Source: Escherichia coli (GTDB lineage Bacteria; Pseudomonadota; Gammaproteobacteria; Enterobacterales; Enterobacteriaceae). From it: 64,000 nucleotides of DNA. The notes beneath the pieces are model-generated. The model made no database searches. It saw nothing but the letters and a program-made list of their open reading frames with translations, and was not told the origin of the DNA. Below are positions 51,330 to 63,932 of this stretch, piece by piece; the first letter of the stretch is position 1; each line of letters begins with the position of its first letter. Made by a program: the position numbers and the translations under genes. The stretch lies in NCBI RefSeq assembly GCF_024502345.1, contig NZ_JALDNN010000001.1, one strand, 5' to 3'.

Positions 51330-52460
51330 CTACAGTTTCATGATCTTGTTCGCTATTTTTTCGAAGTAAACCTCATTCTTAAGAAGAGTGATATTGTTTG
51401 TTTGAACACCCAGACCACTGGAGGTTGACTGGAAGTTGAGTGAACCACTTATCACTGTGGACTTTCCTGATAAAAATGAAATCAACTCCTTGGAAGATGG
51501 TGCCCACTCAGGGTTTAAGAGTAATGCAATATAGATATATGTCTTACGAAGCAATTGTTCTATATCTTTTTTATGCCCTGTAGTGTTTTGCTTACCTTTA
51601 ATGCAAATAGATTTGATTATGAACTCATCAGGGCTGGTTAAAGGCGTTTTAAACTCACTCAGTGATCCATCGTTATGAATGACTTCATAAGGCAGCATAG
51701 ATAAAATGATCAATGCAATCATTTTAGGATGATAAAGGTAGTTATCACGAATGATTTTTCCTGCCTTCATTGTATTGAGCGTTGTTTGAATAAATACAAA
51801 AAGATATTCAGAGCAAAAGTAACAAAACACAAGCCAGGATAGGTCAATGGATGGAATGTTAATATCCTTAGGTAGTTTGTTTAGCCAGTATTCAGACTTC
51901 AAAAAGGTCCTGATTTCAACAGTATATTCATGCATTTTTGCGCTGAAATCAAGCATTGCTACTTGACCTGATTGTTCCGTAACTGTGTGGTCTATAAATG
52001 TTAGTGTATTGCACATTTTATCCAGCGTGTTTTGAAAACAAGAAAGGAGTTCGGCATTATTATTACCATTAACCGCAGATGAAAGTTCAGTTTTAATAAA
52101 TGCATCCAGTAGCATACAGATTTCTTTCGGAATGACATTTTTACGGGATTGCTGTGAATAGAAATGTACTGCCAGTAAATTAAAGGCAGTGCACTCCTTT
52201 TTTAACCATTGTTCGAGCACTGGGACGTGCTGAAAAAAATTGATATGCTTAGCAGTAGATGCTGATGGAGATAGTACATGAAGAATATCTACAGCAGGCT
52301 TCATTTGCAATATTTGATCGGATTCGGTAGTCGTCATTAGTTCCAGTAATTGCTGTTCAGAAAATAGTTTAGACAGGTGATCAATGTCTTTTTGGTATTG
52401 ATTAAGTTTTGTTAAATTCCCCGGTATACGGGTTACATTGTTTTTCATTTTCTCGAACAT
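51330..52460 (-). CDS. Hypothetical protein (AT-rich gene, no recognisable motifs)
   Basis: 376-aa ORF, Lys/Asn/Ile-rich; long uninterrupted frame in a strongly AT-rich stretch. Confidence 0.5.
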   Translation of the reverse strand: MFEKMKNNVTRIPGNLTKLNQYQKDIDHLSKLFSEQQLLELMTTTESDQILQMKPAVDILHVLSPSASTAKHINFFQHVPVLEQWLKKECTAFNLLAVHFYSQQSRKNVIPKEICMLLDAFIKTELSSAVNGNNNAELLSCFQNTLDKMCNTLTFIDHTVTEQSGQVAMLDFSAKMHEYTVEIRTFLKSEYWLNKLPKDINIPSIDLSWLVFCYFCSEYLFVFIQTTLNTMKAGKIIRDNYLYHPKMIALIILSMLPYEVIHNDGSLSEFKTPLTSPDEFIIKSICIKGKQNTTGHKKDIEQLLRKTYIYIALLLNPEWAPSSKELISFLSGKSTVISGSLNFQSTSSGLGVQTNNITLLKNEVYFEKIANKIMKL

Positions 52461-52966
52461 AATTTTATCCTCGTTTGAATTATTACACTGATTTAAAAAG
52501 TAGCATGTCGTGTTAGCGAGGTAATCCTAAAACGTGAATGGCAGCAGGGGCAAGCTTGAATCTGCGTAAGGATATGGCTTGAATTTAATGGTGTAATCAG
52601 TGAGTTAGAGGCTTATAGCCATTTAAATACAATAAGTTATGATAATATATGGCGGGTGTAAATCGGTTAGTTTTTATGGTTAAAATATGAGCATTGTGAG
52701 ATTTGAGATATGATGGTTTTTAAATTACATACAAGTTACCCCTGATGATCAGTATTAATACCAGAATGATACATGCGAGCAGCACCCAATCCTGTACTAT
52801 TTATGATGGCTATACAAGGCTGAAACTTTGAGTCGTATGTTGCCAGGAGGATTAATGTCCACAAGGCCCAGATAGAATGATTTCTCAGATATTAAAGTTG
52901 AAACTTATTAACTATGTGAGAGGCTGATATTTATTCAGTCTCTCATTTGTTTTTATCGTTTTAAAG

Positions 52967-54202
52967 TTAAAAGGAAATAAATAATGCCTTCCGCCGATGA
53001 ATCAGTGTACTGATTTCTCGAAAATCAGCCTCAATACTACCAACATCACCAAAGACTTCACCACTAATCTCTCTTCGATTTTTCATGAAATTGGTGCTTA
53101 ATAAGCTTTCTTTTTTTAGTGTCACTAATTTTGGTTTTATATCGTTATAGAAATGCTTACGGCTTACCCTGATGCTATGAATCGAGTAGTAAACTGTTTT
53201 ATACATCAAAAATATAAGTAACTGGCCGAGAAGATATTCTTTTTCAATGTATTTATATTGAGAGGATTTTTCGCGTTTCGCCAGGTAGAAAACATGAGGT
53301 GCGATGATGGTGGGGATGAAATCCAGTGCTGGAGAGGTTTTGGTTTTTTCTGTTTCTCTTCCGGATTGAAGATGTTGAAGTACAGAGTATACAATGCTTA
53401 AAATTATGGCGTTACTTATATTATTAATTGCAGTTGGGTAAATATGCAGATTGCTTATCAATTCTGAAAGGCAAAGTAAAACACCAGTGATGTTGGGTTT
53501 TCTGCCGGAGATTGTGGTGCTGTTGAAAATGTGACGATTCTTACGACTTATATTGACAAGTTTATGAGTGCAGAACTCTATATGTTCGACGATTTTATCT
53601 TGACTATTTTTAATGTATTTTGAAATGTTAGTGATCCGGCCATTCAACGTTAGTTCATCAAGCAATATATCATTTTTAATATTGCGAATTTCATCGCAAT
53701 GTTCACATTGAGAAACTATCTCATGTAATACATAACTCGACGTATTGCGGGGTGACGCTGATATGTAATCTAAAATAGAAGGCTCGATTTTGATTTTTTG
53801 TTTGTATTTTTTAATGCACTGTTTGATTGTTTTTTGTAGAGTATTTGAGATGTGTTTTTTATATTCTTTTAGAAAATCTTGCTCTAAAAAGAGTGAGGAG
53901 AAGATCAACTGCTGGCGAGATAATTTAATCTCAGGCTTGATCAATTTAATCCGAAAAACTCTTCCCTCCAACTCATAGCTGAACATGGAAGATAAGTCAT
54001 AGTGGGGTGATAAATGTTCGAGTAACGACATTCGTGTATTCATTAGCCGCTTGAATTTATGGTCAGCATACATAAGTGTTTTTTTTATTTGCTCATCATA
54101 AAGTGGGCCGATAGCGCAGTTGGCAATACTCATTCTATCCGGAGACCTCCAGTCAGCAGGGGAATCACATTGACGGTCATCATTACTATCAAAGGGCATC
54201 AA
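52967..54202 (-). CDS. Hypothetical protein (AT-rich gene, no recognisable motifs)
   Basis: 411-aa ORF, similar composition to the preceding gene; divergent from hsdM. Confidence 0.5.
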   Translation of the reverse strand: MMPFDSNDDRQCDSPADWRSPDRMSIANCAIGPLYDEQIKKTLMYADHKFKRLMNTRMSLLEHLSPHYDLSSMFSYELEGRVFRIKLIKPEIKLSRQQLIFSSLFLEQDFLKEYKKHISNTLQKTIKQCIKKYKQKIKIEPSILDYISASPRNTSSYVLHEIVSQCEHCDEIRNIKNDILLDELTLNGRITNISKYIKNSQDKIVEHIEFCTHKLVNISRKNRHIFNSTTISGRKPNITGVLLCLSELISNLHIYPTAINNISNAIILSIVYSVLQHLQSGRETEKTKTSPALDFIPTIIAPHVFYLAKREKSSQYKYIEKEYLLGQLLIFLMYKTVYYSIHSIRVSRKHFYNDIKPKLVTLKKESLLSTNFMKNRREISGEVFGDVGSIEADFREISTLIHRRKALFISF

Positions 54203-54505: not shown

Positions 54506-56029
54506 ATGAACGACAAAATCAGTCAGGACACGATCAACAAAGCCCTGTGGGCCGCGTGTGATACGTTCCGTGGCACCATCAGTGCTGATACCTATAAAGA
54601 CTTTATCCTTACCATGCTATTCCTTAAGTACATTTCGGATGTCTGGCAGGATCACTACGACGAATATAAAGTGCAATATGGTGATGAGCCGGAACTGATT
54701 GAAGCGATGATGGCGAACGAGCGCTTCGTGTTGCCGAAAAGCGCCAGTTTCTATGCGTTGTACGAGCGACGTCATGAGCCGGGCAACGGTGAGCGTATCG
54801 ATCAGGCGCTGCATGCGATTGAAGAAGCCAACGGCACCAAACTGAAAGATGCCGGGAAAAGTGTCTTCCAGGATATTTCGTTTAACACTGACCGTCTGGG
54901 CGAAGAAAAACAGAAGAACACCATCCTGCGTCAGTTGCTGGAAGACTTTGCCGGTGAAGATCTTAACCTGAAGCCAAGCCGTGTCGGTACGCTGGACGTT
55001 ATCGGTAATGCTTACGAATATCTGATCAAAAACTTTGCTGCCAGCGGTGGGCAGAAAGCCGGGGAATTCTATACCCCACCGGAAGTTTCGGATCTCATCG
55101 CTGAACTGCTTGATCCTCAACCCGGTGATACAATCTGCGACCCGGCCTGTGGTTCCGGTTCGTTGCTAATGAAGTGCGGGCGTAAAATTGTCTCAGGACA
55201 TGATAGCCGCAACTATGCGTTGTTCGGTCAGGAAGCGATTGGCTCCACGTGGTCGCTGGCGAAAATGAACATGTTCCTGCACGGCGAAGATAACCACAAA
55301 ATCGAGTGGGGCGATACCATTCGTAACCCGAAGTTGTTGGATAAAAACGGCGACCTGATGCTGTTTGATATCGTGACCGCAAACCCACCGTTCAGCCTGG
55401 ATAAGTGGGGCCATGACGAGGCCGAGAATGATAAGTTTGGGCGTTTCCGTCGCGGTGTACCGCCGAAGACTAAAGGGGATTACGCCTTTATCTCGCATAT
55501 GATCGAAACCCTGAAACCGGGAACGGGTCGTATGGGCGTAGTGGTGCCGCACGGTGTGCTGTTCCGTGGCTCCAGCGAAGGCAAAATTCGTCAGAAGCTG
55601 ATTGATGAAAACCTACTCGATGCGGTGATTGGCCTGCCTGAAAAACTGTTCTACGGTACGGGTATTCCTGCTGCAATTCTGATTTTTAAAAAGCAGAAAG
55701 TGGATGACAAGGTGCTGTTTATCGACGCCAGCCGTGAATTTAAGGCAGGTAAAAACCAGAACCAGCTCAGCGCAGAAAACATCGAGAAAATCGTCAAGAC
55801 CTACCGTGATGGCGATAGCGTCGAGAAATATGCCTACCTTGCCAGCCTGAAGGAGATTCAGGACAACGATTACAACCTCAATATTCCGCGCTATGTCGAT
55901 ACCTTTGAAGAAGAAGAAGATATCGATTTACTTGCCGTTCGTGCTGAGCGGGAGGAATTGAAAGCGGAACTGGCGAAATTGGAAACGCAGATGGCGGGTT
56001 ATCTGGAGGAGCTGGGTTATGGTGCCTAA
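54506..56029 (+). CDS. hsdM: Type I restriction-modification system methyltransferase subunit HsdM
   Basis: 507-aa ORF; SAM-binding motif DPACGSGSLL and catalytic NPPF (TANPPFSLDKW). Confidence 0.9.
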   Translation: MNDKISQDTINKALWAACDTFRGTISADTYKDFILTMLFLKYISDVWQDHYDEYKVQYGDEPELIEAMMANERFVLPKSASFYALYERRHEPGNGERIDQALHAIEEANGTKLKDAGKSVFQDISFNTDRLGEEKQKNTILRQLLEDFAGEDLNLKPSRVGTLDVIGNAYEYLIKNFAASGGQKAGEFYTPPEVSDLIAELLDPQPGDTICDPACGSGSLLMKCGRKIVSGHDSRNYALFGQEAIGSTWSLAKMNMFLHGEDNHKIEWGDTIRNPKLLDKNGDLMLFDIVTANPPFSLDKWGHDEAENDKFGRFRRGVPPKTKGDYAFISHMIETLKPGTGRMGVVVPHGVLFRGSSEGKIRQKLIDENLLDAVIGLPEKLFYGTGIPAAILIFKKQKVDDKVLFIDASREFKAGKNQNQLSAENIEKIVKTYRDGDSVEKYAYLASLKEIQDNDYNLNIPRYVDTFEEEEDIDLLAVRAEREELKAELAKLETQMAGYLEELGYGA

Positions 56030-57266
56030 GGGGTGGAAACGAGTACCGATTAAGGATGTGTGCGAGTCTATAATCGATTGCGTAAATAAAACAGCTCCAG
56101 TTGTTGATTATGAAACTCCCTTTAAGATGATTCGTACCACGAATGTACGTAATGGAAGGGTTAATACTGAAGACGTCAGATATGTGACTGAAGACACTTA
56201 CCTGCAATGGGTTCGACGCGGAAAACCGCAAGTAGGTGATATCATCTTTACACGTGAAGCACCTGTAGGAGAAGCAGGTGTCCTGCAAGATGCTGAAGGT
56301 ATTTTCCTCGGGCAAAGAACGATGATGTATCGAGCTGATACCTGCCTTTCAGATAACTATTTCTTGTTCTACTCGTTATCAAGTCCCTTCTGCCAGAAAC
56401 AAATTGAAGATTTTAGCAATGGCGGTACTGTAGCTCATATGAGAGTTCCAGATTGCGGTGAGATATTGATCAATCTACCGCCTTTCCTCGAACAAAAGAA
56501 AATCGCCCAAATCCTGTCAACCTGGGATAAGGCGATTTCGGTGACGGAAAAGCTTCTCACCAACAGCCAGCAGCAGAAAAAAGCCCTGATGCAGCAATTG
56601 CTTACTGGGAAGAAACGCTTGCTGGATGAGAATGGGACAAGGTTTTCTGAAACTTGGAAATTATATGCCTTATCGAAATTATTTCAGAGAGTTACGACTA
56701 AAAACAATGGAAAAAGCAACAATGTTGTAACCATTTCTGGACAACATGGTTTGATTAAACAGGAAGACTTTTTCAAGAAAACAGTCGCATCAGATACCCT
56801 TGATGGTTATTTCTTATTAAAAAAAGGGCAGTTTGCTTACAATAAAAGTTACTCTAATGGTTATCCGATGGGTGCAATAAAAAGATTAAATCGATATCCA
56901 GAGGGAGTAGTAACAACTCTGTATATATGTTTTGAACTTACTACACCCAAAAAATCATGTGGTGACTATTGGGAGCATTATTTTGAGTCAGGGCTTTTGA
57001 ATAACAGTTTGTCTCAAATTGCTCATGAAGGTGGACGGGCTCATGGCTTGCTAAATGTAAAACCTTCGGACTTCTTTTCATTAAAAGTTGCGGTTCCTGG
57101 CTTTGAAGAGCAACAAAAAATCGCATTAGTTCTGTCCGCTGCCGACACCGAAATCTCCACACTGGAGAAAAAACTCGCCTGCCTGAAAGACGAGAAGAAA
57201 GCCTTGATGCAGCAACTGCTGACCGGGAAACGTCGGGTGAAAGTGGATGAGGCGGTTGCCGTATGA
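56019..57266 (+). CDS. hsdS: Type I restriction-modification system specificity subunit HsdS
   Basis: 415-aa ORF with two target-recognition domains separated by conserved repeats (KKALMQQLLTGKKRLL and KKALMQQLLTGKRRVK); overlaps the hsdM end. Confidence 0.85.
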   Translation: MVPKGWKRVPIKDVCESIIDCVNKTAPVVDYETPFKMIRTTNVRNGRVNTEDVRYVTEDTYLQWVRRGKPQVGDIIFTREAPVGEAGVLQDAEGIFLGQRTMMYRADTCLSDNYFLFYSLSSPFCQKQIEDFSNGGTVAHMRVPDCGEILINLPPFLEQKKIAQILSTWDKAISVTEKLLTNSQQQKKALMQQLLTGKKRLLDENGTRFSETWKLYALSKLFQRVTTKNNGKSNNVVTISGQHGLIKQEDFFKKTVASDTLDGYFLLKKGQFAYNKSYSNGYPMGAIKRLNRYPEGVVTTLYICFELTTPKKSCGDYWEHYFESGLLNNSLSQIAHEGGRAHGLLNVKPSDFFSLKVAVPGFEEQQKIALVLSAADTEISTLEKKLACLKDEKKALMQQLLTGKRRVKVDEAVAV

Positions 57267-57946
57267 AACTGACGAAAAGCGGTCCACTGACTGACCGGGA
57301 AATCGACTGGCTGGAAGAAATATTAATGAAGTATGGAATGGATGATTCTGTACTCTGTTTCTCTGAGCTGGATGGATTGCTGACGGCGATTTTATCAGGT
57401 CCAAATATGGTTTCACCCAATATCTGGCTGAGTGCTATTTGGGGAGGAGGCGATTATCATCCGAAATGGTCATCTGAGAGAGAGATGGAGCGTTTTGTCA
57501 GTCTGTGTTTTCAGCATATGAACGATATCGCTGGTTGCCTTTATGACGCCCCTGAACTGTTTGAGCCGATTTTCAATGAGCGTGAGGTAAAGGGGGAAAA
57601 ATATACCATTGTGGAAGAGTGGTGTTTTGGTTATATGAAAGGAAAGTCACTGGATGACTGGTCTGGTCTTCCCGGTGAGTTACGGCCTTCTCTGGAAGTG
57701 ATCGCTCTTCATGGCGTGGAGAAGAATTTTCCTGTACTTGAGAAAATGACCGGAGAGCAGTTTGAGAAAAGTATTTCCCTTATTCAGCCTGCTGCACTGG
57801 CACTTTATCAGTACTGGTTGTCAGTGAGAATGTCAGAGGCATCATCCCGGCCTGTTCCAGTGAAGGGGGCAGAAAACATGCCCGGGCGAAATGACCCGTG
57901 TCCGTGTGGCAGCGGTAAAAAATTTAAGAAGTGCTGTCTGCATTGA
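57263..57946 (+). CDS. YecA-like (UPF0149) protein with C-terminal SEC-C zinc motif, embedded in the Type I R-M operon
   Basis: 227-aa ORF; C-terminal GRNDPCPCGSGKKFKKCCLH; start overlaps the hsdS stop (ATGA). Confidence 0.8.
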   Translation: MKLTKSGPLTDREIDWLEEILMKYGMDDSVLCFSELDGLLTAILSGPNMVSPNIWLSAIWGGGDYHPKWSSEREMERFVSLCFQHMNDIAGCLYDAPELFEPIFNEREVKGEKYTIVEEWCFGYMKGKSLDDWSGLPGELRPSLEVIALHGVEKNFPVLEKMTGEQFEKSISLIQPAALALYQYWLSVRMSEASSRPVPVKGAENMPGRNDPCPCGSGKKFKKCCLH

Positions 57947-57995
57947 TGAATCTTCATGTGACCAGTAGCGAGTAGCGCCAGAAAGAAAAGGATTA

Positions 57996-60900
57996 ATGAT
58001 GAACCAGACGTACACGCCAAAATTCCAGGAAGAATACAGCGCCAAAATTCCGGCACTGACGTTACTGACCAGCCTCGGCTGGACGTTTTTATCTCCGAAA
58101 CAGATTATGGATTACCGGGGCTATAAACAGGATGAGGTGGTGCTGCGTCCGGTTCTGCGTGAAGAGCTGTCGAAGCGTTCCTTTATGGCGGGTGGCAAAA
58201 CCTGCCAGTTATCGGAAAAAGCACTGGATAACCTGATATCACAGGTCTGTTCTCCGGCGCTGAATGAAGGGCTGCTCAAAGCCAATGAACGGATGTATAA
58301 CCATCTGCTCTACGGTATCGCCGTCACGGAGTTTGTCGATGGCAAGAAGGTCAACCCCACCATTGCGCTGATCGACTGGGAACATCCGGAAAATAACCAG
58401 TTCCACTTTACTGAAGAATTTACGGTATTGCGGTCAGGTGGTGTTGAAACCCGGAGGCCAGATATTGTCTGCTTTGTTAATGGTATCCCGCTGGCTGTTA
58501 TTGAAGCGAAAAGCCCGGCTGGTCATGGCAAGAAAGGGCCAACCATTGACGAGGGGATATCCCAGAGTATCCGCAACCAGTTCAACGATGAAATCCCGCA
58601 GCTGTTTGTCTACAGCCAGTTATTACTTTCGATTAACGGTCATGACGGGCGCTACGGTACATGCCATACGCCAATGAAATTCTGGGCGGCATGGCGCGAA
58701 GAAGATATTACCGATGCGCAGATGTATGCTCTGCGCAACCATCCTTTATCGACTGAACAAATTCATGCGTTGTTTGATCATCGTCCATCAGCCGATCTCA
58801 ACTGGTACCAACAGTTAATCGCCGCCGGTGAACTGGCTGTCAGTGGACAGGACAAACTGCTCATCAGCCTGCTTTCGCCGGAACGTCTGCTGGAGATGAC
58901 CCGCTTCTTCACTCTGTTTGATAAAAAGACCGGGAAAATTGTCGCCCGCTATCAGCAGGTGTTCGGTATTAAAAGACTGCTGGAGCGCATCAGTACCCGC
59001 AGACCCGATGGGGGCAGGGAAGGTGGTGTTATCTGGCATACCACCGGCTCTGGCAAATCGTACACCATGGTGTTCCTCAGCAAGGCGCTGATTCTTCATG
59101 ACAGCCTGAAGCGGTGTCGTATCGTGGTGGTGACGGACCGTATCGATCTTGAAGAACAGCTCAGCAGTACCTTTGCATCCGGCGGCGAGTTGGCCGGGAA
59201 AAAAGACAAAGCCAATGCAATGGCGACATCCGGGCAGATGCTGGCGAAACAGATTGGCTCCGGTAAAGAACGCATCATTTTCACCCTAATCCAGAAATTT
59301 AATTCAGCGACAAAACTTCCTGAATGCGTCAATACCAGCCCCGATATCATCGTTCTGGTTGATGAAGGACACCGTAGCCAGGGTGGTGAGAACCATGTGC
59401 GAATGAAACTGGCACTGCCGAACGCCGCCTTTGTGGCATTTACTGGTACGCCATTGCTAAAAGAAGATAAGACCACCAATAAATTCGGACCGATTGTCCA
59501 CGCTTATACCATGCAGCGAGCGGTAGAAGATAAAGCCGTTACACCTTTGCTGTATGAAGAACGTATTCCCGACCTTGAGGTTAACGATCGGGCAATAGAT
59601 GCCTGGTTTGATCGTATTACCGATGGGTTAAGCGAAGCGCAAAAAGCCGACCTGAAGCGTAAATATGCCCGTAAAGGTGAGGTTTATAGTGCAGATGATC
59701 GCATCCGTCTGATCGCACTCGATATCGCCACGCACTTCTCGAAGAATATTGATGAGGGACTGAAAGGCCAGCTTGCCTGCGACAGCAAGATTTCCGCCAT
59801 CAAATATAAAAAGTATCTTGATGAAGCCGGGTTGTTTGAGTCAGCTGTAGTTATCAGCCCGCCGGATACCCGGGAAGGGAATACCGAAGTGGATGAAAGC
59901 AAACTGCCGGAAGTGACGAAATGGTGGAAGGATAATGTCGGCACGCAGGATGAGTCTGTGTATACCCGTAATGTCATCAGTCGTTTCGATACCGATGAGA
60001 AGCTCAAATTGCTGATAGTCGTTGATAAACTGCTCACCGGGTTTGATGAGCCGAAGAATACCGTGCTGTATATCGACAAGCCGCTTAAGTCCCACAACCT
60101 TATCCAGGCGATTGCGCGGGTGAACCGACTGCATCCACTAAAAAAGTTCGGTCTGCTGATTGATTATCGCGGTATTCTGGCTGAGCTGGACACGACTATC
60201 GGCAAATATCAGGACCTCGCCTCCCGAACTCAGGGCGGATACGATATCAAAGATATTGACGGGCTGTACAGCGCCATGAGCTCTGAATACAAGCGCCTGC
60301 CGCATCTGTATAACCAGCTGTGGGCCATATTTGCCGGTGTTAAAAACAAAAATGATACTGAGCAGTTACGTGCGGTACTGGTGCCTAAAATGGAAGAACG
60401 TGACGGAGAGATGGTCGATATCCATCAGAAAACCCGTGATGATTTCTTCGAGGCGTTAACGGCCTTTGCCGGATGCCTGAAAGTGGCACTGCAGTCCGCT
60501 ACCTTCTTCACCGACAAGAGCTTTACGGAACAAGACCGAAATCTCTATAAAGAAACCGTAAAACAGATGTCCAGCCTGCGCCAGTGGGCGATGCAGGTAA
60601 GTGGAGAGCAGGTCAATTATGACGACTACGCTGAGCAGGTGAAAAAACTGCTGGATAAGCATGTCACCGGCGTTGAAGTTCGTGAACCGGATGGCGTGTA
60701 TGAAGTCGGTAAAATGGGCAAGAGCGAAAAGCCCGAAGAGTGGGACAACAATAAAACCCGCAATGAAACCGACATCATTAAAACCCGTGTGACAAAGATG
60801 ATTGAGCAGGAATTGCGTGATGACCCGTATGCTCAGGAGGCATTTTCAAAACTCCTGCGTATGGCTATCGAAGAGGCTGAAAAACTGTTTGACCATCCGC

Positions 60901-61283
60901 TGAAACAGTACCTTTTGTTCCGTGAATTTGAAGAACAGGTTGAAGCCCGTAAGCTCAGCGATATCCCGGATGCACTGGCGGTAAACAAGCATGCTCAGGC
61001 GTATTACGGTGTATTTAAAAAAGAGCTACCTGAGGTTTTTGCGGTAAACGACGTTCAGGTGCAGGATAAGTGGACGAAGCTGGCTTTTGAAGTGGACAAC
61101 ATTATCGTCAAAGCGGTGGCAGAAAACTCCCTGAACCCCCAGGACATTGAGAAAGTCGTTAAGACAAGTCTGCTACCACTGCTGTTTACGGCCTGCCGGG
61201 AAATTGGTGCCGGAATGAATCAGGTTAACCGTATTGTTGAAACCATCATCCAGATACTGCGCGTTGGTTTGATGAAATCATGA
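57996..61283 (+). CDS. hsdR: Type I restriction-modification system endonuclease/helicase subunit HsdR
   Basis: 1095-aa ORF; Walker A TGSGKS, DEAH-type motif VLVDEGHRSQ, helicase C region. Confidence 0.9.
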   Translation: MMNQTYTPKFQEEYSAKIPALTLLTSLGWTFLSPKQIMDYRGYKQDEVVLRPVLREELSKRSFMAGGKTCQLSEKALDNLISQVCSPALNEGLLKANERMYNHLLYGIAVTEFVDGKKVNPTIALIDWEHPENNQFHFTEEFTVLRSGGVETRRPDIVCFVNGIPLAVIEAKSPAGHGKKGPTIDEGISQSIRNQFNDEIPQLFVYSQLLLSINGHDGRYGTCHTPMKFWAAWREEDITDAQMYALRNHPLSTEQIHALFDHRPSADLNWYQQLIAAGELAVSGQDKLLISLLSPERLLEMTRFFTLFDKKTGKIVARYQQVFGIKRLLERISTRRPDGGREGGVIWHTTGSGKSYTMVFLSKALILHDSLKRCRIVVVTDRIDLEEQLSSTFASGGELAGKKDKANAMATSGQMLAKQIGSGKERIIFTLIQKFNSATKLPECVNTSPDIIVLVDEGHRSQGGENHVRMKLALPNAAFVAFTGTPLLKEDKTTNKFGPIVHAYTMQRAVEDKAVTPLLYEERIPDLEVNDRAIDAWFDRITDGLSEAQKADLKRKYARKGEVYSADDRIRLIALDIATHFSKNIDEGLKGQLACDSKISAIKYKKYLDEAGLFESAVVISPPDTREGNTEVDESKLPEVTKWWKDNVGTQDESVYTRNVISRFDTDEKLKLLIVVDKLLTGFDEPKNTVLYIDKPLKSHNLIQAIARVNRLHPLKKFGLLIDYRGILAELDTTIGKYQDLASRTQGGYDIKDIDGLYSAMSSEYKRLPHLYNQLWAIFAGVKNKNDTEQLRAVLVPKMEERDGEMVDIHQKTRDDFFEALTAFAGCLKVALQSATFFTDKSFTEQDRNLYKETVKQMSSLRQWAMQVSGEQVNYDDYAEQVKKLLDKHVTGVEVREPDGVYEVGKMGKSEKPEEWDNNKTRNETDIIKTRVTKMIEQELRDDPYAQEAFSKLLRMAIEEAEKLFDHPLKQYLLFREFEEQVEARKLSDIPDALAVNKHAQAYYGVFKKELPEVFAVNDVQVQDKWTKLAFEVDNIIVKAVAENSLNPQDIEKVVKTSLLPLLFTACREIGAGMNQVNRIVETIIQILRVGLMKS

Positions 61284-62035
61284 GTGAAAAAGAATCGCCA
61301 TCAATGAAAGCGTTACGCATTGTCTATGGTGATGAGGTCATCGTCGTACAGTGTGTTCCGCGTCAGGTCGTAAAGGGCAGGGTGCTCATTAAGGTTTATC
61401 CGGACTGCCGGGTTGTGGCCTCTGTACCGCCTGAAACACCGGAGCACGAGGTATTGTCTGCGCTGAAAAAACGTGGGCGCTGGATATACCAGCAACTGCG
61501 TGATTTCAGGGAGCAACAGATACACATTGTTCCGCGTCAGTATGTCAGCGGAGAAAGCCATTATTATCTCGGTAAGCAATATCAGTTGAAAGTGACAGAA
61601 GACGCTACTGTGCCGCAACGAGTGAAAATGTTGCGTGGACGTCTGGAAGTGACTGTCAGACACAAATCGGCAGAAAAGATTAAAGCCTTGCTGGCTGAAT
61701 GGTATCGGGAACGTGCCAGAGATGTTTTTCAGCGCAGGCTTGATTTACTGATTCCGCAGACCCTTTGGGTCAGTGAGCGTCCTCCGATACGTCTGCGGGC
61801 GATGCAAACGCAATGGGGCAACTGTTCAGCAAAAGGCTGTCTGACCCTGAATCCATGGCTGGTTAAGGCATCTTCAGAATGTATCGATTATGTTTTGCTA
61901 CATGAGTTATGCCATGTGGCTGAGCACAACCACAGCGAGGAGTTTTACCGTCTGATGGGACAGGTTATGCCGGGCTGGGAAAAGGTTAAGAAGCGACTGG
62001 ATGGTATGGCTGGGATGTTGTTGGCAGATATGTAA
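61280..62035 (+). CDS. YgjP-like (DUF45 / M48 family) zinc metallopeptidase, coupled to hsdR
   Basis: 251-aa ORF with HExxH motif (LLHELCHVAEHNH); start overlaps the hsdR stop (ATGA). Confidence 0.75.
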   Translation: MSEKESPSMKALRIVYGDEVIVVQCVPRQVVKGRVLIKVYPDCRVVASVPPETPEHEVLSALKKRGRWIYQQLRDFREQQIHIVPRQYVSGESHYYLGKQYQLKVTEDATVPQRVKMLRGRLEVTVRHKSAEKIKALLAEWYRERARDVFQRRLDLLIPQTLWVSERPPIRLRAMQTQWGNCSAKGCLTLNPWLVKASSECIDYVLLHELCHVAEHNHSEEFYRLMGQVMPGWEKVKKRLDGMAGMLLADM

Positions 62036-62060: not shown

Positions 62061-63932
62061 TTGGTCAGTCTCGTTAATGCAGGGAGTATAATAATGAGTA
62101 AGTTAGATAATAAAATTGAAGCACGCCATCGTAATTTGTTTGATGTTCTAAATGCGCAAAAATATACCGTTGATTACTTTCAGCGCGAGTATAGCTGGGG
62201 TGAGAAACATATTGAAGAGTTGGTTACAGACTTAACATCTGCGTTTCTCAATGAATACACAGTCGGTGATTCTCGGGAGCAGGGTGAAAACTACAATAAT
62301 TATTACTTAGGACCATTTGTTGTGAGTAGTAAAGATGGAAAGCGGAGTATTATTGATGGTCAGCAACGACTGACTTCATTAACTTTATTTCTAATTTACC
62401 TCCATAATCTTCAGAAAGAACTTAAATATGAAGAGAAAATAGAATCAATGATTTTCTCCGAGCTACGTGGCAGCAAATCATTCAATATAGTAGTTGAAGA
62501 CAGAATTCCTTGCATGGAAGCATTGTTTAATTTTGGTAGCTATAGTTTAGTTGATGGGGATGATGAGTCAACCCATAACATGGTGGAGAGATATCAGAAT
62601 ATCACAGATGCTTTTCCTGATGAGTTAAAAGGTCAGGCTTTTCCTTTTTTTATCGACTGGCTTAAGTATAACGTTATTATGGTTGAGATAGTCGCCTATT
62701 CAGATGAAAACGCATATACCATCTTTGAGACTATGAATGACCGAGGATTGAATCTTACTCCGTCCGAAATGCTTAAAGGTTTTTTACTTTCACGTTTTCA
62801 TCAGGGAGATAAACGCCAAAAGGCAAATGAACTCTGGAAAAAAGCGATGATGGATTTAAAAAGCTATGACAAAGATGAAGACCAACGTTTTTTCCAGTCA
62901 TGGTTGCGTGCTCAATATGCTGATACAATACGCCCGGGTAAAGCTGGTTCAAAAAATGAAGACTTTGAAAAAATAGGTACGCGTTTTCATAGCTGGGTTA
63001 GAGATAATCTTCAGGCGGTGGGATTGGACCCAGATAATGGTGAGACATTCGAACGATTTATACAAAAAAACTTTTTGTTTTATTTGAATGCCTATACACA
63101 AATACTGAATGCTGAGAGAGTATTAACGCACCAACTGGAATATGTATTTTATATCCACCATTGGGGTATTGCACCTACTTTAAGTTTTCCTTTGATGTTG
63201 GCTCCATTAAATGTAGGTGACAGTCCTGAGGCTGTGATAGCCAAAATAAACCTAGTGGCTCGCTATATTGAAACGTTTGTTGTTCGTCGTTCTGTTAATT
63301 TCCGAAAATTCTCTGCCAGTTCTATTCGTTACACAATGTACAGTCTTGTTAAAGAGATTCGTGGTAAAAGTTTTGAAGAATTAAAAGATTTATTATCTAA
63401 GAAGTTATCCGAAATGCCAGATACTTTTGCAGGAATGGAAGAGTTTCGTCTCCATGGTCAAAACTATCGTTTTGTGAAGTTTTTGCTTTCTCGTATAACT
63501 GCGTGGGTTGAGCAACAAGCCGGAATGAGTACAACCTTCATTACATATTATCAGCCAGAACACGGTAAGCCATTTGAAGTCGAGCATATTTGGGCCGATA
63601 AATATGAACGTTACTCTGATGAGTTTGAACAAGAGCACGAATTTAACAATTACAGAAATCGCTTAGGTGATTTGGTTTTATTACCTAGAGGCTCAAACCA
63701 GTCATATGGTGATTTGTGTTACGATCAAAAGCAACCTCATTACATCAAAGAGAATCTCCTGGCTAAATCGTTATGCCCATTGGCATATATGAATAACCCT
63801 AATTTCAATCAGTTGAGAAATGTATTCGGATTGCCTTTCAAACCACATGATTCATTTAAAAAACAAGATGTCGATGAACGACAGTCTTTGTATAAAATAA
63901 TTTGTGAGAATATTTGGGGCCATAATTTATAG
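62061..63932 (+). CDS. GmrSD-family Type IV restriction endonuclease (N-terminal DUF262 ParB-like domain, C-terminal DUF1524 HNH-like nuclease)
   Basis: 623-aa ORF; DUF262 signature IIDGQQRLTSL; C-terminal segment EVEHIWADKYERYSDEFEQEHEFNNYRNRLGDLVLLP. Confidence 0.75.
   Translation: MVSLVNAGSIIMSKLDNKIEARHRNLFDVLNAQKYTVDYFQREYSWGEKHIEELVTDLTSAFLNEYTVGDSREQGENYNNYYLGPFVVSSKDGKRSIIDGQQRLTSLTLFLIYLHNLQKELKYEEKIESMIFSELRGSKSFNIVVEDRIPCMEALFNFGSYSLVDGDDESTHNMVERYQNITDAFPDELKGQAFPFFIDWLKYNVIMVEIVAYSDENAYTIFETMNDRGLNLTPSEMLKGFLLSRFHQGDKRQKANELWKKAMMDLKSYDKDEDQRFFQSWLRAQYADTIRPGKAGSKNEDFEKIGTRFHSWVRDNLQAVGLDPDNGETFERFIQKNFLFYLNAYTQILNAERVLTHQLEYVFYIHHWGIAPTLSFPLMLAPLNVGDSPEAVIAKINLVARYIETFVVRRSVNFRKFSASSIRYTMYSLVKEIRGKSFEELKDLLSKKLSEMPDTFAGMEEFRLHGQNYRFVKFLLSRITAWVEQQAGMSTTFITYYQPEHGKPFEVEHIWADKYERYSDEFEQEHEFNNYRNRLGDLVLLPRGSNQSYGDLCYDQKQPHYIKENLLAKSLCPLAYMNNPNFNQLRNVFGLPFKPHDSFKKQDVDERQSLYKIICENIWGHNL

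What the first reader, a model, noticed from the sequence alone, without database searches (positions are those of the whole stretch)
61280..62035. HExxH metallopeptidase gene coupled to the hsdR stop codon
A YgjP/DUF45-type zinc peptidase immediately follows hsdR, with the start codon overlapping the stop. Such peptidases recur next to Type I R-M genes and may control HsdR levels or activity, but the role is uncharacterised.
Basis: partly seen in the sequence, partly recalled or inferred. Interest (0 to 1): 0.45.

Follow-up and report, generated by a model that had tools for sequence, protein, structure and literature searches.

The report
Zinc peptidase gene coupled to hsdR
A small zinc-protease gene is welded to the end of the DNA-cutting subunit gene of a Type I restriction system, a pairing kept across many bacterial phyla; the gene is already annotated and its job is still untested, but it most likely controls or removes that cutting subunit.

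Summary
ORF 61280-62035 (+, 251 aa) starts with an ATG that overlaps the hsdR stop codon (ATGA). It is a full-length YgjP-like/DUF45 protein (Pfam PF01863, E=6.7e-58) with an invariant HExxHxxxxxH zinc site.

The structure model is confident. It has a C-terminal catalytic domain of about 100 aa that resembles the minigluzincins and, next, the Spartan/Wss1 proteases. It also has a basic N-terminal region of about 160 aa with no solved relative.

The link to hsdR is strong:
- Among the 80 closest loci from different species, 70 of 77 informative ones have a same-family hsdR directly upstream. In 45 of 67 measured junctions the codons overlap by 4 or 1 bases.
- In E. coli and in plasmids the two genes occur essentially one-to-one.
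- Peptidase divergence tracks HsdR (r=0.86) more closely than HsdM (0.62).
- Variable cargo genes insert between hsdS and hsdR but never between hsdR and the peptidase.

No paper tests the function. The pairing has been noted in print but left untested (EPEC RptR-RMS-DarTG-M48 island). My best inference, at about 40%, is a system-encoded protease that acts on DNA-engaged HsdR, for restriction alleviation or complex clearance. The gene itself is already known and common. The open question is what it does.

The parts
54506..56029 (+). hsdM, the Type I methyltransferase subunit (507 aa)
   Evidence: Pfam N6_Mtase E=8e-107 and HsdM_N; PADLOC MTase_I E=5e-133.
56019..57266 (+). hsdS, the specificity subunit (415 aa); it overlaps the hsdM end by 11 nt
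   Evidence: Pfam Methylase_S; PADLOC Specificity_I E=1e-113.
57263..57946 (+). Embedded cargo gene: a YecA-like UPF0149 + SEC-C protein (227 aa) whose start overlaps the hsdS stop
   Evidence: Pfam UPF0149 E=5e-30 and SEC-C; NCBIfam PRK10396 E=5.5e-107; PADLOC candidate PDC-S12 E=3.9e-99. It occupies the hsdS-hsdR cargo slot seen in 44 of 55 related loci.
57996..61283 (+). hsdR, the restriction/translocase subunit (1095 aa)
   Evidence: TIGR00348 hsdR 461 bits against a cut-off of 284.55; Pfam HSDR_N, SWI2_SNF2 and T1R_D3-like; PADLOC REase_I 1375 bits. The nearest solved relative, EcoR124I HsdR, matches only over the motor domains (E=3e-33).
61280..61283 (+). ATGA junction: the peptidase start codon overlaps the hsdR stop codon
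   Evidence: Read directly from the sequence. Overlaps of 4 nt or 1 nt occur in 45 of 67 related junctions.
61280..62035 (+). YgjP-like/DUF45 zinc metallopeptidase gene (251 aa)
   Evidence: PF01863 E=6.7e-58; 99%-identical cluster named 'M48 family metallopeptidase [E. coli]' with 1034 member sequences; AF2 mean pLDDT 95.4.
61280..61759 (+). N-terminal basic region (aa 1-160: two beta-rich units plus long helices) with a family-specific fold
61760..62032 (+). C-terminal catalytic domain (minigluzincin-like)
61901..61933 (+). Zinc-binding and catalytic motif HELCHVAEHNH (H208, E209, H212, H218)
   Evidence: These four residues are invariant in 64 of 64 diverse cluster representatives. HExxHxxxxxH is present in all 80 related loci. 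HELCH was part of the search pattern for those loci; the third His was not.

Best explanation
The gene encodes a soluble, cytoplasmic HExxH zinc metallopeptidase of the YgjP-like/DUF45 family. It has a basic N-terminal region of about 160 aa and a minigluzincin-type catalytic domain of about 100 aa. It is translated by coupling to the end of hsdR and forms an inherited two-gene module with hsdR. All of that is shown.

The rest is inferred. I think it most likely acts as a system-encoded protease directed at HsdR, or at the HsdR-containing complex, when that complex is engaged on DNA. In this it would resemble the way the structurally related Spartan/Wss1 proteases cleave DNA-bound proteins. 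The outcome would be one of two things: restriction alleviation that does not depend on the host's own ClpXP or Lon (protecting the chromosome when sites are unmodified, for example just after the mobile system enters a new host), or clearance of dead-end enzyme from cut DNA. Proteolysis would have to be conditional, on DNA or on a stalled state, because the protease is made together with its presumed substrate.
For: Identity and catalytic competence:
- PF01863 at E=6.7e-58.
- H208, E209, H212 and H218 are invariant in 64 diverse representatives.

Tie to HsdR specifically:
- 70 of 77 informative loci from Proteobacteria, Bacteroidota, Chloroflexota, Cyanobacteria, Planctomycetota, Actinomycetota and others have a same-family hsdR immediately upstream on the same strand.
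- 45 of 67 junctions overlap by 4 or 1 nt.
- Sampling from the HsdR side also finds the peptidase, at 67%, 36% and 30% HsdR identity.
- E. coli: the same 568 records match the peptidase alone and the hsdR 3' end plus peptidase.
- Plasmids: 375 records hold HsdR at >=90% identity and 376 hold the peptidase at >=90%.
- Pairwise divergence of the peptidase correlates with HsdR (r=0.855) better than with HsdM (r=0.618).
- Cargo genes insert between hsdS and hsdR in 44 of 55 loci, while the hsdR-peptidase junction stays tight.

Capacity to bind nucleic acid (circumstantial): every family member is basic (median pI 9.9, median net charge +16), and the charge sits in the non-catalytic N-terminal region.

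Host side rather than phage side: only 8 weak hits in 50,697 phage records.

Biological need:
- Proteolysis of HsdR by host ClpXP is the known alleviation mechanism for Type IA and IB systems. EcoR124I uses another route (PMC3874165 and PMC4231737).
- Lon/AsrA degrade HsdR in P. aeruginosa (bioRxiv 10.1101/2024.10.21.619520).
- A PAO1-like locus lacks this peptidase.
- The module rides on conjugative plasmids and on an integrase-bearing island.
Against: - No experiment on any member was found.
- No HsdR-peptidase fusion appears among the 150 best cluster representatives; all are <=322 aa.
- Seven of 77 loci carry catalytically intact orphan copies with no hsdR nearby. They are scattered among the linked sequences, so the enzyme can persist without an adjacent hsdR.
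- Co-inheritance and correlated divergence prove a shared module, not a substrate relationship.
- A basic surface would bind acidic DNA-mimic proteins as readily as DNA.
- SprT-like and WLM Pfam scores fall just below their cut-offs, so the Spartan/Wss1 analogy is structural only.
- ArdC, another Spartan-like metalloprotease tied to Type I systems, did not need its protease site for its phenotype (PMC7213743).
Confidence: 0.4

Rival explanations
1. Counter-counter-defence. The peptidase destroys phage or plasmid anti-restriction proteins (acidic DNA mimics such as Ocr or ArdA, or Stp-like peptides) and so keeps the Type I enzyme active.
For: The strongly basic non-catalytic region could bind acidic DNA mimics. 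The gene sits in defence islands and on plasmids alongside other defence genes. It is rare in phages.
Against: From established knowledge, DNA mimics bind the HsdM2S core. Yet the peptidase is coupled to hsdR and diverges with hsdR rather than hsdM. Its very even conservation across phyla, with an invariant core, is not the pattern expected of a protein in an arms race with diverse phage inhibitors.
Confidence: 0.15
2. Back-up abortive-infection effector. The peptidase is held inactive by HsdR and is released as a toxic protease when the restriction enzyme is inhibited, as the PrrC anticodon nuclease is with EcoprrI.
For: There is precedent for accessory effectors wired to Type I loci (PrrC, PMC12707154). 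Stoichiometric co-translation with HsdR would suit a complex that keeps the enzyme latent. The closest solved relatives, proabylysin and projannalysin, are deposited as zymogens.
Against: In this family the known accessory effectors occupy the variable hsdS-hsdR slot and are interchangeable, whereas the peptidase is constant. Catalytically intact orphan copies persist in ordinary chromosomal contexts with no obvious antidote gene next to them.
Confidence: 0.12
3. Not a protease acting on proteins. It is a small-molecule or nucleotide hydrolase, or a non-catalytic assembly or chaperone factor for HsdR. From memory, E. coli K-12 YgjP is listed as a nucleotide pyrophosphatase; I did not verify this here.
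For: The family has long been annotated 'metal-dependent hydrolase' (source names). No substrate is known.
Against: The best structural matches are bona fide peptidases with the same HExxH + His site. The catalytic Glu is invariant, which argues against a purely structural role.
Confidence: 0.08
4. A hitch-hiker. The gene has no functional relation to the R-M system and is merely carried along with it.
For: Orphan copies exist.
Against: The junction has stayed tight and overlapping across phyla while neighbouring positions are constantly reshuffled. The two genes co-occur one-to-one in E. coli and in plasmids.
Confidence: 0.03

Closest known systems
YgjP-like / DUF45 family (Pfam PF01863), including proabylysin (PDB 4jiu) and the other 'minigluzincins' (projannalysin, selecase)
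   Different: The archaeal minigluzincins are about 105-aa catalytic domains only. This protein adds a basic N-terminal region of about 160 aa with no solved relative and is tied to hsdR.
Spartan (SprT) and Wss1 (WLM), the DNA-dependent DNA-protein-crosslink proteases
   Different: The Pfam scores are below both gathering cut-offs (23.6 against 25.6; 25.8 against 26). It has no ubiquitin/SUMO-binding or Zn-ribbon DNA-binding modules. DNA dependence has not been tested.
Host-protease restriction alleviation: ClpXP degrading HsdR in E. coli Type IA/IB systems, and Lon/AsrA degrading HsdR in P. aeruginosa
   Same: This is the proposed functional analogue: conditional proteolysis of the R subunit to prevent self-restriction (PMC4231737, PMC3874165, bioRxiv 10.1101/2024.10.21.619520).
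   Different: Those are host AAA+ proteases encoded elsewhere in the genome. Here the candidate is a small ATP-independent zinc peptidase encoded in the operon. No HsdR cleavage has been shown.
EPEC RptR-RMS-DarTG-M48 (RRDM) island
   Same: Same architecture: hsdM-hsdS-[embedded cargo]-hsdR-'M48' peptidase. That paper's neighbourhood analysis also lists M48 as conserved next to Type I systems (PMC12255303).
   Different: The cargo there is DarTG2, here a YecA-like gene. No rptR was identified here. The peptidase was not tested separately in that work.
ArdC (plasmid R388)
   Different: ArdC belongs to the invading plasmid and acts against restriction. [quoted passage not shown]
Peptidase family M48 (Ste24/HtpX), the name NCBI gives this protein
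   Different: No Pfam Peptidase_M48 hit at E<=0.01. No membrane segment (highest 19-residue hydropathy 1.02). The third ligand is probably His218 rather than the downstream Glu of M48.

Membership tests
YgjP-like / DUF45 (PF01863) | Profile match above Pfam's gathering score over the whole domain | tested here: met
   196.6 bits against a cut-off of 26; profile positions 3-205 of 207.
YgjP-like / DUF45 (PF01863) | HExxH with a downstream His (HExxHxxxxxH) as the metal site | tested here: met
   H208, E209, H212 and H218 are invariant in 64 of 64 representatives. The motif reads HELCHVAEHNH.
YgjP-like / DUF45 (PF01863) | Zinc binding and peptide-bond hydrolysis | not testable with these tools
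   Inferred only, from fold similarity to proabylysin and selecase.
SprT-like (PF10263) / WLM (PF08325) DNA-protein-crosslink proteases | Profile match above the gathering score | tested here: not met
   SprT-like 23.6 bits against 25.6; WLM 25.8 bits against 26.
SprT-like (PF10263) / WLM (PF08325) DNA-protein-crosslink proteases | Shared catalytic-domain fold | tested here: met
   [not shown]
SprT-like (PF10263) / WLM (PF08325) DNA-protein-crosslink proteases | DNA-dependent cleavage of DNA-bound proteins | not testable with these tools
   The only evidence is circumstantial: a uniformly basic family, median pI 9.9.
Peptidase M48 (Ste24/HtpX) | Peptidase_M48 profile match and membrane anchoring | tested here: not met
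   [not shown]
Type I restriction-modification system (the operon that carries it) | hsdM, hsdS and hsdR all present and intact | tested here: met
   Pfam, NCBIfam and PADLOC matches for all three genes. All three ORFs are uninterrupted.
Type I restriction-modification system (the operon that carries it) | Assignment to a named family (IA-IE) | tested here: inconclusive
   HsdR matches the Type IC prototype EcoR124I only over the motor domains (E=3e-33). Type ID and IE prototypes were not available, and the Titheradge 2001 paper is not held.
Restriction-alleviation protease (functional class) | Conditional degradation of HsdR | not testable with these tools
   Needs HsdR stability assays. Only genomic linkage is shown.
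Known anti-phage defence component (PADLOC-DB v2) | Match to a PADLOC model | tested here: not met
   0 families for the peptidase. NCBIfam also returns none.

The most novel reading that the evidence does not exclude
The YgjP-like peptidase is a fourth functional component of a large, cross-phylum family of Type I R-M systems. On this reading it is a self-encoded, DNA- or stall-dependent Spartan/Wss1-like protease that cleaves HsdR engaged on DNA. That would give these highly mobile systems a form of restriction alleviation that does not depend on the host, a third mechanism beside ClpXP/Lon proteolysis and the EcoR124I-type dilution of free HsdR. It would also be a bacterial counterpart of DNA-protein-crosslink proteases acting on a defence enzyme.
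Probability: 0.3. Interest if true: 0.7.

Novelty: already known. Interest (0 to 1): 0.4.

Why it matters
Type I enzymes are dangerous to their own host whenever sites become unmodified. How families other than IA and IB avoid self-restriction is unresolved. This peptidase is the only constant gene besides hsdM, hsdS and hsdR in a family found from Actinomycetota to Bacteroidota. It is present in about 10% of complete E. coli genomes and on hundreds of Klebsiella conjugative plasmids. If it does control HsdR, that would explain how these systems establish themselves in new hosts after transfer. It would also add a component that current defence-system catalogues such as PADLOC do not model, and it would matter for plasmid spread and for engineering strains that are easy to transform. 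If it does not, the pairing is still one of the tightest unexplained gene linkages in restriction biology.

Tried and rejected
- **Literature searches** (YgjP, DUF45, PF01863, COG1451, M48/SprT + hsdR) found no functional study. The DUF45 word-start hits were DUF450 noise. The Payne 2024 'embedded defences' preprint and the EcoSal review do not mention the peptidase. Makarova 2011 and Titheradge 2001 are not held, so my recollection that COG1451 was flagged as linked to Type I R-M systems stays unverified.
- **Link to the P. aeruginosa PAO1 system, where HsdR proteolysis was studied:** a published primer sequence found three metagenome loci. Two show no Hsd or peptidase homologs and look like chance matches (L089, L091). 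The third (L090) has the PAO1 gene order but a different HsdR family (E=1e-20) and no YgjP-like gene. Those data therefore do not bear directly on this peptidase. The identity of L090 with PAO1 is probable, not proven.
- **A second protein search, seeded from a Pseudomonas homolog,** named no P. aeruginosa member.
- **HsdR-peptidase fusions:** none among the 150 best representatives.
- **The 'M48 family' label** is rejected as a membership claim.
- **PADLOC and NCBIfam** return nothing for the peptidase.
- **Co-folding of HsdR with the peptidase** was considered but dropped. The combined length exceeds the limit, and the tool returns no inter-chain contacts.
- **The antisense ORF 61313-61663 (-)** was ignored as a by-product of the coding strand.

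Caveats on the linkage counts:
- The 80 loci are the best 80 of at least 594 pattern hits, so they sample the clade nearest the query.
- The start codon in each locus was chosen as the in-frame candidate nearest the hsdR stop, which favours small gaps. The ATGA and TAATG strings are nevertheless visible directly in the sequences.
- PLSDB gene tables are incomplete.

Full report
**Observation.** The ORF exists exactly as described: 61280..62035 on the + strand, 251 aa, starting with ATG. hsdR runs 57996..61283, so the peptidase ATG (61280-61282) and the hsdR TGA (61281-61283) share the tetranucleotide ATGA. No good Shine-Dalgarno sequence lies upstream, and no promoter-like or terminator-like site lies between the two genes. 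The simplest reading is translation by termination-reinitiation. RefSeq annotates the same gene with the same overlap in E. coli H10407 and CT02.

**What the protein is.**
- Pfam places it in YgjP-like/DUF45 (PF01863) at E=6.7e-58 over essentially the whole profile. Hits to WLM and SprT-like fall just below their cut-offs. NCBIfam and PADLOC have no model for it.
- The family is very large: 22,082 cluster representatives at E<=1e-3.
- In an alignment of 64 representatives at 31-60% identity, H208, E209, H212 and H218 (HExxHxxxxxH), together with W179 and W233, are invariant. The catalytic machinery is therefore under selection.
- AlphaFold2 gives a confident model (pLDDT 95.4).
- The protein has no membrane segment. 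Like every family member examined, it is strongly basic (family median pI 9.9), and the charge sits in the N-terminal region.
- NCBI's label 'M48 family' is therefore only a remote-fold statement.

**Setting.**
- The operon reads hsdM (54506), hsdS, a YecA-like UPF0149/SEC-C gene (PADLOC candidate PDC-S12), hsdR, the peptidase, and then a GmrSD-like Type IV enzyme 58 nt further on.
- The window is E. coli. It is 99.9% identical over the peptidase gene to strain CT02 and about 98% identical over the nine-kilobase operon to H10407.
- The region is an integrase-bearing defence island beside chromosomal yecA-tyrP. In H10407 the island continues into an MZA system.

**Is the linkage conserved?** Yes, strongly.
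- A scan of one genome per species returned 80 loci at 31-64% identity from many phyla. I searched their ORFs with the window's Hsd proteins. Three loci have too little upstream DNA to judge. Of the other 77, 70 have an hsdR of the same family immediately upstream on the same strand.
- Among 67 measured junctions, 24 overlap by 4 nt (ATGA, GTGA or TTGA), 21 overlap by 1 nt (TAATG or TGATG), and 61 lie within 13 nt.
- Further examples at 32-35% identity, from Arcobacter and Mycolicibacterium plasmids, show the same overlap.
- Starting from HsdR instead, plasmid HsdR relatives at 67%, 36% and 30% identity are each followed by the peptidase. Two remote HsdR families, from Zymomonas and Bacillus, are not.
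- In complete E. coli genomes the peptidase occurs in 567 of 5,426. The same 568 records match a query made of the hsdR 3' end plus the peptidase.
- In plasmids, 375 records carry HsdR at >=90% identity and 376 carry the peptidase at >=90%, mostly on Klebsiella conjugative plasmids.
- Phages hardly ever carry it: 8 weak hits in 50,697 records.

**The unit is hsdR plus peptidase.**
- Across 38 loci with all genes complete, pairwise identity of the peptidase correlates with that of HsdR (Pearson 0.855) more than with HsdM (0.618). It even exceeds the HsdR-HsdM correlation (0.709).
- The interval between hsdS and hsdR is a cargo slot, longer than 600 nt in 44 of 55 loci. Cargo seen there includes YecA-like genes, McrBC, a nucleotidyltransferase with SLATT, Fic with AbiE, a GIY-YIG nuclease with a kinase, and DarTG in EPEC (PMC12255303). 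The hsdR-peptidase junction stays closed throughout.
- Exceptions exist. Seven loci hold catalytically intact orphan copies in ordinary chromosomal contexts. These are scattered among the linked sequences rather than forming one clade. There are also decay products: a truncated peptidase after a shorter hsdR, and hsdR fragments annotated beside an intact peptidase.

**Literature.**
- I found no functional test of any member.
- The clearest mention is the EPEC RptR-RMS-DarTG-M48 island. There the 'M48' gene lies downstream of hsdR and is listed as a conserved neighbour, but it was never dissected.
- Restriction alleviation by ClpXP proteolysis of translocating HsdR is established for Type IA and IB systems. 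EcoR124I (Type IC) alleviates restriction without proteolysis.
- In P. aeruginosa, Lon and AsrA degrade HsdR on hypomethylation. A locus with the PAO1 gene order, found through a published primer, has a different HsdR family and no YgjP-like gene.
- ArdC, a plasmid anti-restriction protein, carries a Spartan-like protease domain whose active site was dispensable for its phenotype.

**Mechanism.**
- Shown: an intact zinc-peptidase site, a soluble basic protein, co-translation with HsdR, and co-inheritance with HsdR across phyla.
- Inferred: the substrate is HsdR, or the HsdR-containing complex, on DNA. Cleavage would be conditional on DNA or on a stalled state, as in the Spartan/Wss1 relatives. 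The outcome would be either host-independent restriction alleviation or clearance of enzyme that stays bound after cutting.
- The argument is parsimony. Proteolysis of HsdR is the known control point of Type I systems. Systems that move between phyla cannot count on a host protease recognising their HsdR. And the peptidase follows hsdR rather than the methyltransferase genes.
- I put this reading at about 0.4.
- Rivals: an anti-anti-restriction protease (0.15), weakened because DNA mimics target the M2S core and not HsdR. A latent abortive-infection effector (0.12), weakened because effectors in this family occupy the variable slot whereas the peptidase is constant. A non-proteolytic hydrolase or assembly factor (0.08). 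A mere hitch-hiker (0.03).

**Comparison and novelty.** The protein is a member of PF01863 by every sequence feature I could test. It resembles SprT/WLM proteases in fold but not above their profile thresholds, and it is not an M48 peptidase. The same protein is already in RefSeq under a family name: a 99%-identical cluster with 1,034 member sequences. Its position next to hsdR has been printed. As an object it is already known. What is unknown is the function.

**Verdict.** The interest is moderate: a very tight, widely conserved and experimentally approachable linkage, but not a surprise to specialists.

Noticed in passing
window 57263-57946 (+): A YecA-like UPF0149 + SEC-C gene is embedded between hsdS and hsdR, with its start overlapping the hsdS stop. 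It matches the PADLOC defence candidate PDC-S12 (E=3.9e-99). In E. coli CT02 the island lies right next to the chromosomal yecA paralogue.
   Followed up: partly
window 57266-57996, and loci L002-L097: The hsdS-hsdR interval is a cargo hotspot in this Type I family, longer than 600 nt in 44 of 55 loci. Cargo seen includes McrBC (L002), DUF2188 + nucleotidyltransferase + SLATT (L084), Fic + AbiE (L097), GIY-YIG nuclease + Ser/Thr kinase (L096) and, in EPEC, DarTG. The hsdR-peptidase junction is never interrupted.
   Followed up: partly
window 62094-63932 (+): A GmrSD-like DUF262/DUF1524 Type IV restriction enzyme (Pfam GmrSD_N and GmrSD_C; PADLOC HEC-06 E=1.4e-39) starts 58 nt after the peptidase stop with no terminator between, so it may be co-transcribed. 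In H10407 it is followed by a PD-(D/E)XK nuclease, another restriction endonuclease and an MZA system.
   Followed up: partly
[not shown]
   Followed up: yes
L049, L050, L052, L063, L068, L074, L081: Orphan YgjP-like genes with intact HExxHxxxxxH have no hsdR within about 6 kb upstream or 4 kb downstream. Their nearest relatives are hsdR-linked copies (40-54% identity), which suggests repeated detachment rather than one paralogous clade.
   Followed up: partly
L085 (E. coli PSJ-16); hits H33 and H76: Decay variants occur: a truncated peptidase pseudogene after a 971-aa hsdR, and truncated hsdR fragments (one annotated 'UvrB domain 3-containing protein') next to an intact peptidase annotation.
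   Followed up: no
L090 (metagenome contig Ga0180220_1002050): This locus has the gene order of P. aeruginosa PAO1 PA2735-PA2730: a 792-aa hsdM, hsdS, a 354-aa ORF I took to be RhuM-like (not scanned), a 1160-aa hsdR, and a 201-aa ORF overlapping the hsdR end. It is a different HsdR family, and the overlapping downstream gene is unrelated and of unknown function.
   Followed up: partly
window 51330-54202 (-): Two large ORFs (376 and 411 aa) lie on the opposite strand just upstream of hsdM. RefSeq also annotates them only as hypothetical proteins. They sit between the island's integrase genes and the R-M operon.
   Followed up: no
plasmid hits H86-H104, H124-H150: The same hsdR-peptidase pair (peptidase about 97.6% and HsdR about 98.4% amino-acid identity) sits on more than 350 Klebsiella plasmids, mostly conjugative. 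The module therefore moves between E. coli chromosomal islands and clinical Klebsiella plasmids.
   Followed up: partly
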